The notes under the pieces: generated by a model
Told to the model about the DNA's origin: nothing
The model's database searches: none
What the model saw: the letters and a program-made list of their open reading frames with translations, nothing else
Shown here: positions 24,021-28,489 of the stretch, one piece after another
How positions within the stretch are numbered: the stretch's first letter is position 1
How the letters are laid out: each line of letters opens with the position of its first letter
Origin: the human T2T-CHM13v2.0 reference genome, Homo sapiens
DNA: 64,000 nucleotides
Assembly: GCF_009914755.1 (NCBI RefSeq)
Contig: NC_060938.1
Strand: one strand, 5' to 3'
Program-made: the position numbers and the translations under genes

Positions 24021-24309
24021 GGCCCGGCGCTGTGGCTCACACTGGGTAATCCCAGCACTTTGGGAAGCTGAGGTGGGCAGATCATAAGGTCAAGAGATTG
24101 AGACCATCCTGGCTAACATGATGAAACCCCATCTCTACTAAAAATACAAAATTAGCTGGACATGGTAGTGGGCGCCTGTAGTCCCAGCTACTCAGGAGGC
24201 TGAGGCAGGAAAATCGTTTGAACTTGGAGGTGGAGGTTGCAGTGAGCCGAGATTGTGCCACTGCACTCCAGCCTGGTGACAGCGAGACTCCGTCTCAAAA
24301 AAAAAAAAA
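24021..24309 (+). mobile_element. AluSc-like
   Basis: aggtcaagagattgagaccatcc; imperfect TSD aattc..tttcca. Confidence 0.85.
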
Positions 24310-24564: not shown

Positions 24565-24870
<306 letters not shown>

Positions 24871-24927: not shown

Positions 24928-25214
24928 TTTTTTTTTTTTTTTGAGATGGAGTCTTGCTCTGGCTGGAGTGCAGTGTCACAGTCTCGGCTCACTGCAAGCT
25001 CCGCCTCCCGGGTTCATGCCATTCTTCTGCCTCAGCCTCCTGAGTAGCTGGGACTAAGGCCCCTGCCACCACGCCCGGCTATTTTTTTGCATTTTTAGTA
25101 GAGACAGGGTTTCACCATGTTAGCCAGGATGTTCTCCATCTCCTGACCTCATGATCTGCCCGTCTCGGCCTCCCAAAGTGCTGGGATTACAGGCGTGAGC
25201 CACCACACCCAGCC
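24928..25214 (-). mobile_element. AluY
   Basis: Antisense Alu; TSD cagaaata(g/t)aatttt. Confidence 0.88.
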
Positions 25215-25355
25215 CAGAAATATAATTTTTTTTATTCCAAGTTGTACATTATTCCATTTGTTCATATTATTTTATATATATAAATATATATTTTATATAT
25301 TTGTATATATACTTTTAAAACTTGATAATTCAACATAAACATTTTAATATATTAA

Positions 25356-25691
<336 letters not shown>

Positions 25692-26687
25692 GAAAATATA
25701 ATTTTTAAAGGCTAACAATATTTAACTATTATAATTAACTTCTCCCCTGTTGGACAATTACTTGGTTTTTCTTCTAACAATGTTGTAATAGTCTTTGTAT
25801 ATAAGTCTTTATAATCATTTATTATTTTCATAGGTTAGAGACTTTAAAAATGAAATCACTAGGCCAAAGCCTATGAGAATAAGACTCTTGATATATAATG
25901 CCAAAAATCTTTCCAGAAAGGTTTTTTTTTTTTTTTAAACCAGTTGGTACTCTCACCAGTCCTATCAACCTTCCCAGCTTTGAAGATTGTCAGTTCCTGC
26001 CTCTGCTCCTTGCTTGCTCCAGTGGGGGCAGGAGAAGGGGTGGTCTTTAATTTTATTCTTTTAATTTGCATTACTCTGATACCTAAGAATGGAAGTTTTT
26101 AATGAATTTATCAGCAGCTCCTCTTTCTAAAGTGCCTAGTTACATCTTTTGCCTATTTTTCTATTTGGTTATCTTTTTCTTACTGATTTGTGTTTTATAT
26201 TCTGGATTTGAGCTCTTTCAGTTTTCTGTACCACAAATATCTTTTCCCATTCTGTCCCTTGTCTTTTCATTCTCTTACTGTGAAGAGTTACTTGCCTTCT
26301 TCTGATGAGAAGTCCTTAGTTTTAGTGAGAACAACTTACTATTCATTTATTTTATCATTAGTACTTTTTATGTCCTAATTAAGAAAATTTTCCCTGTCCC
26401 TAGGCCCTCAAAGTATGCTTTTATTAATTTCCCTTTGACATGAGATCTACAATCCACCTGGTGTGCAGAAGGAATCAGGTCTCAACTGTCTCCATATGGC
26501 TGGGCAGTTGATCCAGCCATATGAAGAAGTTGATCCTCTCCCCAACTGCCCCCCTGACTGCTTCACGTGAATCAAATAAAGTTCTAAGACATTTACTTAA
26601 ATGTAAAGACATTTATTAAATTTAAATATATATATTTTCAATGGGATTCAAGTGAAGAGACCTGATAGATCAACATTTTGGATGTTC

Positions 26688-27825
26688 AGAAATACGTATC
26701 TGAGATCTGTTTTCTTTTGTGGTTTTTGTAATTTTTTTTTTATTTGCTGAAGTTTTTTAAAGTTCAAATTCTGTGGCATATGAAAGACATAATGAATAAT
26801 TAAATATTTTTTATTTAGGTGAAAACCTAAAACTTTCAGTGTTCTTTAAATGTACTTTTTGTTCTTACCTTGATTAGCTCTTTTTATTTTTAGGTAAAAA
26901 GTACATGTAGCTATGTTTCAATGTAATTAATTTTACATTACTCTTATGAGTCAAGAAAAAGACAAGTCTGAAGAATCATATCAAGCCACTTGAAAAAGGA
27001 TGCAGAAGAACCTGCTTTTCAGTGCCACTGATCATTCCGATTTAGTAGTGATCCCCAAATGTATATGAAAATTACAGCGTGGTATTCACTGTCTCTCTAT
27101 AGACAGTGTAGCTTTTCCTTGGTAGAAGTTGAAAGGGCAGTAATACTATACTTTGAGAAATAGTAGTTATAGAGCTTGCCACATAGTAGGGCCTTAATAA
27201 ATATTTCTTTTTAACTGGCAAAAATTATATATATTTATGGTATACAACATCATGTTTTGATATGTGAATATATTGTGAAATGATTAAATTAAGCTAGTTA
27301 ACCTATCCATCACCTCATATACTTCTTTGTGATAAGAATGTTTTAGAGCTACTCAACAATTTTTAAGCATACAACACATTATTATTAACTCTAGTCCCCA
27401 GGCTGTACAGTAGACCTCCAGAGCTTGTTCCTCTTGACTCAGTGGAACTCTGTACCCTTTGACCAACACCTCCTCTTCCCCAGCCCCTGGCAACCACCAT
27501 TCTACTCTCTGCTTCTGTGAGTTCGGGGTTTTCAGATTCCACAAGTGAGATCATGCAGTGTTTCTTAGTAAATCCTTCTGACTGTCTCATTTCCGTGAGA
27601 TATTTCATTTCTGATATATTATGGAAGTATTCTTGTTATTTTAAAATGCTTCTGTGAAACATATTTTAGGATTTATCCCAACCTTAAGTCCTGATATTTG
27701 CTGTAAAATATTTAATTATTAATTGTCTTTCATATGCCACAGAATTTGAACTTTAAAAAACTTTAGCAAATAAAAAATATATTACAAGAACCACAAAAGA
27801 AAATAGATCTCAGATACGTATTTCT
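26688..27825. repeat. Long inverted repeat: arms 26688-26810 and 27705-27825, ~93% identical, spacer 894 bp
   Basis: Manual reverse-complement alignment gives 6 substitutions plus a 2-nt gap over ~123 nt. Confidence 0.92.
27205..27570 (-). mobile_element. L1MA-type 3' end fragment, preceded by a short L2 tail remnant (~27170-27204)
   Basis: tttatggtatacaacat...cagcccctggcaaccaccattctactctctgcttctgtgagtt. Confidence 0.8.
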
Positions 27826-27955
27826 TTTTCTTAACTTTAAAAGTTTTAGGCATAAACGTTAAGTTCTGTCAGTTCACCAATTAATTGCTTAGGGGAAAAA
27901 GTCTTAGAAACTGCAAAACAGAAGTATTGTGTCTGAGTCATTCTACTTTGAGTGA

Positions 27956-28489
<534 letters not shown>

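What the first reader, a model, noticed from the sequence alone, without database searches (positions are those of the whole stretch)
26688..27825. Non-repeat ~120-bp inverted repeat predicting a long pre-mRNA duplex in a PCNX1 intron
Seen: 26688-26810 is the reverse complement of 27705-27825, with 6 substitutions and one 2-nt gap. All three transition differences give G-U wobble pairs on the sense (PCNX1) strand and would be A-C mismatches on the antisense strand; this is suggestive but only three events. The arms do not resemble Alu, L1 or a MITE I recognise, there is no TSD, and they look more similar to each other than the enclosed L1MA/L2 fragments look to their consensus. The right arm ends ~150 nt upstream of the 27978 acceptor. 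Inference: a long-range RNA stem that loops out 894 nt, regulates splicing and is a non-Alu ADAR substrate.
Basis: partly seen in the sequence, partly recalled or inferred. Interest (0 to 1): 0.8.

Follow-up and report, generated by a model that had tools for sequence, protein, structure and literature searches.

The report
Single-copy inverted duplication in PCNX1 intron
A 120-base stretch of a PCNX1 intron is present a second time, flipped, about 900 bases away; it is most likely a harmless evolutionary copying accident that lets the unspliced RNA fold into a long double strand, and nothing shows that it controls splicing.

Summary
26688-26810 is the reverse complement of 27705-27825 with 6 substitutions and one 2-nt gap. 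The spacer is 894 nt and the right arm ends 152 nt before the 27978 acceptor.

- **Not chance:** E = 1.6e-44 against the 3.1-Gb genome. The duplex energy is -160.4 kcal/mol, against -26.2 ± 4.3 for 200 shuffles.
- **Not a repeat family:** the whole genome holds only these two copies. There is no target-site duplication.
- **Younger than its contents:** the arms differ by 5%. The old L1 fragment between them is only 72-75% identical to its relatives.

The best reading is a locus-specific inverted duplication, probably primate-age, that was made by a template switch or templated break repair.

The stem survives in the fold of the whole exon-intron-exon RNA: 115 pairs, with a longest helix of 54. 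Its features match the edited class of catalogued non-repetitive human dsRNAs, so passive ADAR editing is likely, though untested.

Nothing supports selection or a splicing role. The 3-of-3 G-U pattern has P = 0.125. The other three substitutions and the gap break pairing. The stem covers no splice signal.

No outgroup genomes, Dfam or editing data were available.

The parts
26688..26810 (+). Left arm of the inverted repeat (123 nt, 22.8% GC, T-rich on the sense strand). Probably the source copy.
   Evidence: Searches give the alignment. Searches show only two copies in the genome. One search gives AT skew -0.24, like the rest of the intron (-0.14).
27705..27825 (+). Right arm (121 nt), the reverse complement of the left arm with 6 substitutions and a 2-nt gap. 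Probably the derived, inverted copy. It carries a sense-strand AATAAA at 27769.
   Evidence: In one search it is the only one of nine segments measured in this intron with A>T on the sense strand (+0.18). This is a weak hint only, 1.3 sd from the mean of 958 intronic 120-nt windows. One search gives the AATAAA.
26811..27704 (+). 894-nt spacer, which is the loop of the predicted RNA stem. It is unique sequence apart from the L1 fragment.
   Evidence: 26811-27210 and 27568-27704 have no other genomic match at E <= 10; sense-strand T>A is kept (-0.04, -0.12, -0.26), so there is no sign that the spacer was inverted.
27203..27567 (.). Old LINE-1-type fragment inside the loop. It looks like an L1 3' end antisense to PCNX1, but that orientation and the family name are recalled, not tested.
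   Evidence: 3691 first-look candidates; the 39 scored hits elsewhere in the genome (40 scored, one being the query itself) are 71-77% identical (the 11 fetched as loci 72-75%); alignment limits 27203-27566 against 11 fetched copies.
27978..28420 (+). Downstream PCNX1 exon. Its acceptor lies 152 nt after the right arm.
   Evidence: Hub annotation given with the finding; sequence.

Best explanation
This is a locus-specific inverted duplication. One mutational event copied about 121-123 bp of unique PCNX1 intron sequence, in reverse-complement orientation, to a site about 0.9 kb away and across an L1 fragment that was already there. The likely event was a replication template switch or templated repair of a break. 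The right arm is probably the copy.

The event is probably primate-age and the repeat has since drifted neutrally, gaining 6 substitutions and one 2-nt indel. As a by-product, the PCNX1 pre-mRNA can fold into a 115-bp, 94%-paired stem with an 894-nt loop. Nuclear ADARs probably edit this stem promiscuously before the intron is spliced out and degraded. It has no demonstrated or needed role in splicing.

Shown: the repeat, its uniqueness in the genome, its sharp ends, the absence of a target-site duplication, and the predicted duplex. Inferred: the mutational mechanism, which arm is the copy, the age, editing, and neutrality.
For: - **Two copies only.** Only 2 copies exist in 3.1 Gb, by BLAST-type search at E <= 10. 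A 27-nt core of the arm, allowing up to 3 mismatches, occurs 1 forward and 1 reverse, with controls 0 and 0.
- **Positive controls.** The same search does find about 70%-identical copies of an old repeat 300-570 bp upstream (40 hits elsewhere in the genome from 86 candidates) and of the L1 fragment.
- **Sharp ends and no transposition mark.** Homology has sharp ends and there is no target-site duplication.
- **Relative age.** The arms are 95% identical, while the enclosed L1 fragment is 72-75% identical to other copies. The repeat is therefore younger than the sequence it spans.
- **Absolute age.** K = 0.0496 (Jukes-Cantor 0.051; Poisson 95% range 1.8-10.8%). This gives about 21-26 Myr at a recalled rate of 1.0-1.2e-9 per site per year, with a range of about 8-54 Myr.
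- **CpG.** The single CpG of each arm is intact.
- **Differences are scattered.** There is no long perfect block beyond 54 bp.
- **Which arm is the copy.** On the sense strand the left arm has AT skew -0.24, like the intron, and the right arm +0.18.
- **The duplex.** Energy is -160.4 kcal/mol on the sense strand and -145.8 on the antisense. The stem is kept in the MFE of 3812 nt of exon-intron-exon.
- **Mechanism is described in print.** Template switching that creates reverse-complement copies, and so hairpins, in one step is described for primate genomes, with events up to 83 bases (PMC10710096, passages).
Against: - No outgroup genome was available. The absence of one arm in other primates or mammals, which is the core of the claim, is untested.
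- Neither junction shows microhomology, and none of the candidate mechanisms leaves a signature I could read.
- Published short template switches are smaller and adjacent (up to 83 bases). This event is 121 nt with an 894-nt gap.
- The skew argument for which arm is the copy is only 1.3 sd.
- The genome search skips very common words. It failed to confirm a short old-repeat motif that I thought I recognised at about 27170-27205. An ancient, highly diverged repeat origin of the underlying sequence therefore cannot be excluded, though that would not explain 95% identity between only two copies.
- All 3 transitions preserve pairing on the sense strand, which is in the direction expected under selection.
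Confidence: 0.7

Rival explanations
1. The two arms are kept complementary by selection because the long-range stem shortens or reshapes the intron, regulates splicing of the downstream exon, and acts as a dedicated non-Alu ADAR target.
For: The duplex is very stable and persists in the full-intron fold. 3 of 3 transitions give G-U on the sense strand. The sense duplex is 14.6 kcal/mol more stable than the antisense one. The right arm holds a sense AATAAA at 27769 that the stem would mask. Long-range intronic pairings do affect splicing in human genes (PMC8052449, passages).
Against: P = 0.125 for the wobble pattern. 3 of 6 substitutions plus a 2-nt bulge break pairing. The stem ends 152 nt before the acceptor and covers no splice signal. 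It loops out no exon of the selected transcript. Six AATAAA/ATTAAA hexamers occur in this intron, so the one in the arm is not special. Catalogued conserved splice-linked pairings are about ten times shorter, with median 13 nt and -17.2 kcal/mol. Conserved dsRNAs are the least stable class, with median 65 bp and -42 kcal/mol (PMC11838218). No paper links PCNX1 to editing.
Confidence: 0.07
2. The repeat is the scar of a roughly 1-kb inversion. Staggered breaks or a double template switch inverted the spacer and left an inverted duplication of the breakpoint sequence at both ends.
For: The architecture (arm, unique segment, inverted arm, sharp ends, no target-site duplication) is what such events leave. 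Inversions are regularly found flanked by inverted repeats in human-chimpanzee comparisons (PMC8755829, passages). Those cases are 17-33 nt inversions.
Against: The three spacer segments keep the sense-strand T>A bias of the intron (-0.04, -0.12, -0.26), where a recently inverted segment should show A>T. This test is weak. No old repeat is split across a breakpoint, and the L1 fragment is in one piece.
Confidence: 0.12
3. An older inverted repeat whose arms have been kept alike by gene conversion between them, not by selection or by youth.
For: The arms are far more alike than the age of the enclosed L1 fragment would predict. Conversion between palindrome arms is well known for large human palindromes (recalled).
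Against: The arms are short, and the longest perfect block is 54 bp. That is below the identity tracts usually thought necessary for efficient mammalian recombination (recalled). The differences are spread along the arms, with no conversion-tract pattern.
Confidence: 0.05
4. The arms are terminal inverted repeats of a DNA transposon or MITE, or two independent insertions of one repeat family in opposite orientation.
For: Terminal inverted architecture, with the left arm preceded by a C so that the unit starts 'CAG...', a motif I recall from some transposon ends.
Against: Only 2 copies exist in the genome at any detectable identity. A family young enough to keep 95% identity between ends should have left other copies at least as similar. 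There is no target-site duplication. Rfam gives no match. DNA transposons are thought to have been inactive in the anthropoid lineage for tens of Myr (recalled).
Confidence: 0.02

Closest known systems
Non-repetitive intramolecular dsRNAs of the human genome (dsRNAscan catalogue, PMC11838218; I read passages of the main text only)
   Same: Two complementary arms within 10 kb, not overlapping a recognised repeat family, and intronic.

| Feature | This repeat | Edited non-repetitive class, median, n = 4,597 | Unedited class, median |
|---|---|---|---|
| Length | 115 pairs | 144 bp | 75 bp |
| Energy (kcal/mol) | -160.4 | -184.8 | -44.6 |
| Paired | 94% | 87.5% | 75.2% |
| Longest continuous helix | 54 bp | 30 bp | 14 bp |
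| Loop | 894 nt | 509 nt | 1407 nt |
   Different: It is shorter than the >300 bp that paper uses for likely MDA5 ligands.
Inverted Alu pairs (IRAlus), the main ADAR substrates in human pre-mRNA
   Same: Intronic inverted repeats that form long dsRNA. The window holds 8 other pairs of 80 nt or more within 5 kb, mostly in stretches listed as masked.
   Different: The arms are single-copy sequence, not Alu. They are more complementary than any other pair in the window (95% against 72-89%), and about 120 bp rather than about 300 bp.
Template-switch mutations that create hairpins in one step (PMC10710096, PMC5453318; I read passages of the first and only the search listing of the second)
   Same: A reverse-complement copy of nearby unique sequence appears with sharp ends, without a target-site duplication and without a mobile element, preferentially noticed in introns.
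   Different: Described events are short (15-83 bases) and give hairpins with small loops. Here the copy is 121 nt and lies 894 nt from its source. The ancestral state was not seen.
[quoted passage not shown]
   Same: Long-range intronic base pairing within 10 kb. Such pairs are enriched in A-to-I sites, more so when more stable.
   Different: PCCRs are defined by vertebrate conservation and are short, with median 13 nt and -17.2 kcal/mol. This stem is about ten times longer, its conservation is unknown, and it looks young.
Inversions flanked by inverted repeats or inverted duplications (PMC8755829, passages)
   Same: A unique segment bracketed by near-perfect inverted repeats.
   Different: Those inversions are 17-33 nt with flanks of 3-75 nt. 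Here the bracketed segment is 894 nt, and its base-composition skew gives no sign of inversion.

Membership tests
DNA transposon / MITE with terminal inverted repeats | Multiple related copies in the genome | tested here: not met
   Only the two arms match, at E <= 10. The 27-nt core with up to 3 mismatches occurs in 2 places only.
DNA transposon / MITE with terminal inverted repeats | Target-site duplication flanking the element | tested here: not met
   The longest shared flank word is 4 nt, reached by 991 of 1000 shuffles.
DNA transposon / MITE with terminal inverted repeats | Match of the ends to a curated transposon consensus (Dfam/Repbase) | not testable with these tools
   No Dfam or Repbase library was on hand.
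Inverted Alu pair | Both arms are Alu (7SL-derived) sequence | tested here: not met
   The Rfam scan finds SRP-like (Alu) matches only at 24941-25690 and none in 26688-27825. The copy number is 2.
Non-repetitive intramolecular dsRNA (dsRNAscan class) | At least 25 bp of pairing between arms less than 10 kb apart | tested here: met
   115 pairs with an 894-nt loop.
Non-repetitive intramolecular dsRNA (dsRNAscan class) | Arms do not intersect annotated repeats | tested here: inconclusive
   The arms are single-copy by genome search. The RepeatMasker track itself was not available, and the hub lists only the 20 longest masked stretches.
ADAR substrate (edited dsRNA) | Clustered A-to-G mismatches in RNA on both arms | not testable with these tools
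   No RNA-seq or editing database was available. Paper searches found nothing for PCNX1. Supplements were closed.
Conserved splice-regulating long-range pairing (PCCR) | Both arms conserved across vertebrates, with compensatory substitutions | not testable with these tools
   No orthologous sequences were held. The arm-to-arm comparison gives 3 wobble-compatible and 3 disruptive substitutions plus a bulge, which is uninformative.
Conserved splice-regulating long-range pairing (PCCR) | Overlaps or loops out a splice site, an exon or a regulatory site | tested here: not met
   The stem ends 152 nt before the acceptor. The loop 26811-27704 holds no exon of the selected transcript (hub annotation). 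The other 26 transcripts were not visible.
Template-switch mutation | Exact reverse-complement copy of nearby sequence with sharp ends | tested here: met
Template-switch mutation | Ancestral (outgroup) sequence lacks the copy | not testable with these tools
   No outgroup genomes were held.
L1 twin-priming inversion | Inverted segments are L1 (or one retro-copied RNA), bounded by a target-site duplication and a poly(A) tail | tested here: not met
   The arms and most of the spacer are unique, with no source locus elsewhere. There is no target-site duplication. The L1 piece is one uninverted block, far older than the arms.

The most novel reading that the evidence does not exclude
A primate-specific, single-step inverted duplication created a new 115-bp intronic dsRNA that has since been co-opted. 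By pairing on the sense strand only (all three transitions kept as G-U), it would mask the AATAAA at 27769 or change the kinetics of the 27978 acceptor, and would recruit ADAR to the PCNX1 pre-mRNA. That would be a datable case of a long regulatory RNA structure born de novo without any transposon.
Probability: 0.05. Interest if true: 0.55.

Novelty: new member of a known kind. Interest (0 to 1): 0.25.

Why it matters
Almost all long dsRNA in human transcripts comes from Alu or L1 pairs. Single-copy inverted duplications are the minority route by which a genome gains a long RNA duplex in one step. Such a duplex is a possible ADAR, PKR or Dicer substrate and raw material for new RNA structures.

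This locus is a clean example: sharp ends, no mobile element, and datable from its own arms. It could serve in a survey of how such duplications arise and whether they are tolerated in introns. By itself it is probably neutral. Thousands of similar structures are already catalogued, so its value is as an example and not as a discovery.

Tried and rejected
- **Transposon ends.** Rejected on copy number and the missing target-site duplication.
- **Two independent insertions of one repeat family.** Rejected for the same reason.
- **L1 twin priming or retro-copy of a distant transcript.** Rejected. No source locus exists elsewhere, the L1 piece is a single old block, and there is no target-site duplication.
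- **Extended, more diverged homology beyond the arms.** None found.
- **Known RNA family in the arms or loop.** None found in Rfam at E <= 1.
- **Microhomology at the junctions.** None readable.
- **A MIR-like motif near 27170-27205.** I thought I recognised it from memory, but the genome search did not confirm it. I make no claim on it. It does show that the search can miss short old repeat pieces.
- **Literature on PCNX1 editing or dsRNA.** 0 papers for 'PCNX1' + 'RNA editing'. 2 for 'PCNX' + 'A-to-I': the one I read concerns chicken PCNXL2, and the other, a circular-RNA review, I saw only in the listing. 1 irrelevant paper for 'PCNX1' + 'ADAR'.
- **Supplementary tables of the dsRNAscan paper.** These might list this very structure, but they were closed.
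- **Comparative genomics.** The held genome has no relatives and no other eukaryote genome was available, so covariation and dating by presence or absence could not be attempted.

Full report
**Observation.** The repeat finder reports inverted arms 26688-26789/27724-27825 (102 nt, 95%) and 26791-26810/27705-27724 (20 nt, 95%). A gapped alignment joins them into one repeat of 123 against 121 nt, with 6 substitutions and one 2-nt gap. The differences are at 26709 G/A, 26725 T/C, 26733 T/A, 26735 T/A, 26749 G/A, the gap at 26789-90, and 26794 G/T. The spacer is 894 nt and the right arm ends 152 nt before the acceptor at 27978.

Chance is excluded. The inverted copy scores E = 1.6e-44 in a search of the entire 3.1-Gb genome. 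The inter-arm duplex is -160.4 kcal/mol, against -26.2 ± 4.3 (minimum -39.9) for 200 shuffles. The minimum is -46.9 for 65 other 121-nt windows of the same intron. Among the 9 inverted pairs of 80 nt or more within 5 kb in the 64-kb window, this is the most complementary (95% against 72-89%).

**What the arms are not.** The window's own genome could be searched whole. The arm alone, the arm with flanks at E <= 10, and the right arm with flanks at E <= 10 each find only the two arms. A 27-nt core of the arm, allowing up to 3 mismatches, occurs once forward and once reverse in the genome, and the reversed-pattern control gives 0 and 0.

The search can see old repeats. It returns 40 hits of about 67-92% identity elsewhere in the genome (plus the query itself), from 86 candidates, for an old repeat at about 26120-26400. 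It returns 3691 candidates for the L1 fragment in the loop. It is not perfect: a short motif near 27170-27205 that I thought I recognised as an old SINE end found nothing, and the tool warns that very common words are skipped. So I cannot exclude that the underlying sequence descends from some ancient, eroded repeat. That would not explain two copies at 95% with nothing else in the genome above detection.

Several other signs of a mobile element or known RNA are absent:
- There is no target-site duplication around the unit or around either arm.
- Rfam has no match in 26688-27825 at E <= 1.
- Homology ends sharply, and the 200-nt flanks align no better than shuffles.

Transposon ends, paired insertions of one family, and L1 twin priming are therefore rejected.

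**Relative age.** The loop contains a 365-nt LINE-1-type fragment (27203-27567) in one piece. It is 72-75% identical to the 11 fetched copies and 71-77% to the 39 scored hits elsewhere in the genome. If the inverted repeat predated that insertion and evolved neutrally, its arms should be similarly far apart. They are 95% identical. The repeat is therefore younger than the sequence it brackets, unless it is conserved or homogenised, and the copy must have landed about 0.9 kb from its source.

From 6 substitutions in 121 aligned sites, K = 0.0496 (Jukes-Cantor 0.051; Poisson 95% range 1.8-10.8%). With a recalled primate rate of 1.0-1.2e-9 per site per year, this is about 21-26 Myr, with a range of about 8-54 Myr. 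The single CpG in each arm is still intact, which fits a modest age. These dates rest on recalled rates and on six events.

**Which arm is the copy, and was the spacer inverted?** The only polarity test available without outgroups is strand composition. The intron is T-rich on the sense strand (AT skew -0.14). The left arm fits this (-0.24). The right arm is the only one of nine segments with A>T (+0.18). The three spacer segments keep T>A (-0.04, -0.12, -0.26). This weakly suggests that the right arm is the inverted copy and that the spacer was not inverted. The right arm's value is only 1.3 sd from the mean of 958 intronic 120-nt windows, so this is a hint and not a result.

**Mechanism of origin (inferred).** The sharp ends, the lack of a target-site duplication, the lack of a mobile element, and a reverse-complement copy of nearby unique sequence all point the same way. 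This is the signature of a replication template switch or of templated synthesis during break repair. Such events are documented as one-step creators of hairpins in primate genomes, with inferred events up to 83 bases (PMC10710096, passages). Inverted repeats flanking small inversions are documented in human-chimpanzee comparisons (PMC8755829, passages). The present event is larger (121 nt) and longer-range (894 nt) than those classes. I saw no junction microhomology.

**The RNA.** On the sense strand the arms form 115 pairs (87 A-U, 25 G-C, 3 G-U). 94.3% of arm nucleotides are paired and the longest uninterrupted helix is 54 bp. The stem is retained in the minimum-free-energy fold of the whole 3812-nt exon-intron-exon RNA and of the 1138-nt unit on either strand.

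These values sit with the 'edited, non-repetitive' class of the genome-wide dsRNAscan catalogue, not with the unedited class (PMC11838218, passages).

| Feature | This stem | Edited class (n = 4,597), median | Unedited class, median |
|---|---|---|---|
| Length | 115 pairs | 144 bp | 75 bp |
| Energy (kcal/mol) | -160.4 | -184.8 | -44.6 |
| Paired | 94.3% | 87.5% | 75.2% |
| Longest continuous helix | 54 bp | 30 bp | 14 bp |

Promiscuous ADAR editing is therefore likely, mostly on the A-rich right arm (56 A, against 36 on the left). It is untested. I had no editing database, and three paper searches found nothing on PCNX1. At about 120 bp and intronic, it is below the >300 bp that paper uses for likely MDA5 ligands, and it would be removed with the intron.

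**Selection and splicing.** 3 of 3 transitions giving G-U on the sense strand has P = 0.125, or about 0.20 with a recalled transcription-linked bias. The other half of the substitutions (two U-U, one G-A) and the 2-nt bulge disrupt pairing.

The stem does not touch the branch-point, polypyrimidine or AG zone, and it loops out no exon of the selected transcript. The other 26 transcripts were not visible to me. The AATAAA inside the right arm (27769) is one of six such hexamers in the intron.

Known splice-regulating long-range pairings are defined by conservation and are short, with median 13 nt and -17.2 kcal/mol (PMC8052449, passages). Conserved dsRNAs are the least stable class in the dsRNAscan catalogue. 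A 115-bp near-perfect stem looks like a young duplication and not like a selected structure. I put the regulatory reading at about 5-7%.

**Verdict.** The finding is real and correctly described. Its most probable nature is a neutral, lineage-specific inverted duplication that happens to encode a long intronic dsRNA. It is a new instance of a known and already catalogued kind. The decisive test, presence or absence of each arm and covariation in other primates and mammals, could not be run here.

Noticed in passing
window 27950-27999: A 12-nt inverted repeat (27950-27961 / 27988-27999, 92% complementary) spans the 27978 acceptor. The 71-nt stretch 27940-28010 folds at -20.8 kcal/mol into a hairpin that encloses the polypyrimidine tract and the AG. 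This local structure is better placed to affect use of this acceptor than the long repeat.
   Followed up: partly
window 24046-24223 and 25085-25667: Inverted repeat pairs (84-106 nt, 79-89%) lie on either side of the exon 24609-24814. The downstream arms fall in Alu-like sequence, with SRP-type Rfam matches at 24941-25690. This is the arrangement that favours back-splicing (circular RNA) of that exon. circPCNX RNAs are in the literature (listing only), but I did not check which exons they contain.
   Followed up: no
window 26120-26400: An old interspersed repeat. 40 hits elsewhere in the genome at about 67-92% identity were scored from 86 candidates. The family was not named here. It served as a positive control for the genome search.
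   Followed up: partly
window 26489-26527: A 15-nt near-perfect palindrome with a 9-nt loop (93%), upstream of the left arm. It also appeared as a weak self-match on the minus strand.
   Followed up: no
window 26586-26636: A 19-nt tandem repeat with 2.1-2.6 copies at 84-90% match, about 50 nt upstream of the left arm.
   Followed up: no
window 26847-26909: A 14-nt inverted repeat (93%) with a 35-nt loop, just inside the left arm. It is a second, small hairpin-forming repeat in the same AT-rich stretch and may be chance.
   Followed up: no
window 27769-27774: A sense-strand AATAAA inside the right arm, which the long stem would base-pair. It is one of 3 AATAAA and 3 ATTAAA in this intron.
   Followed up: partly
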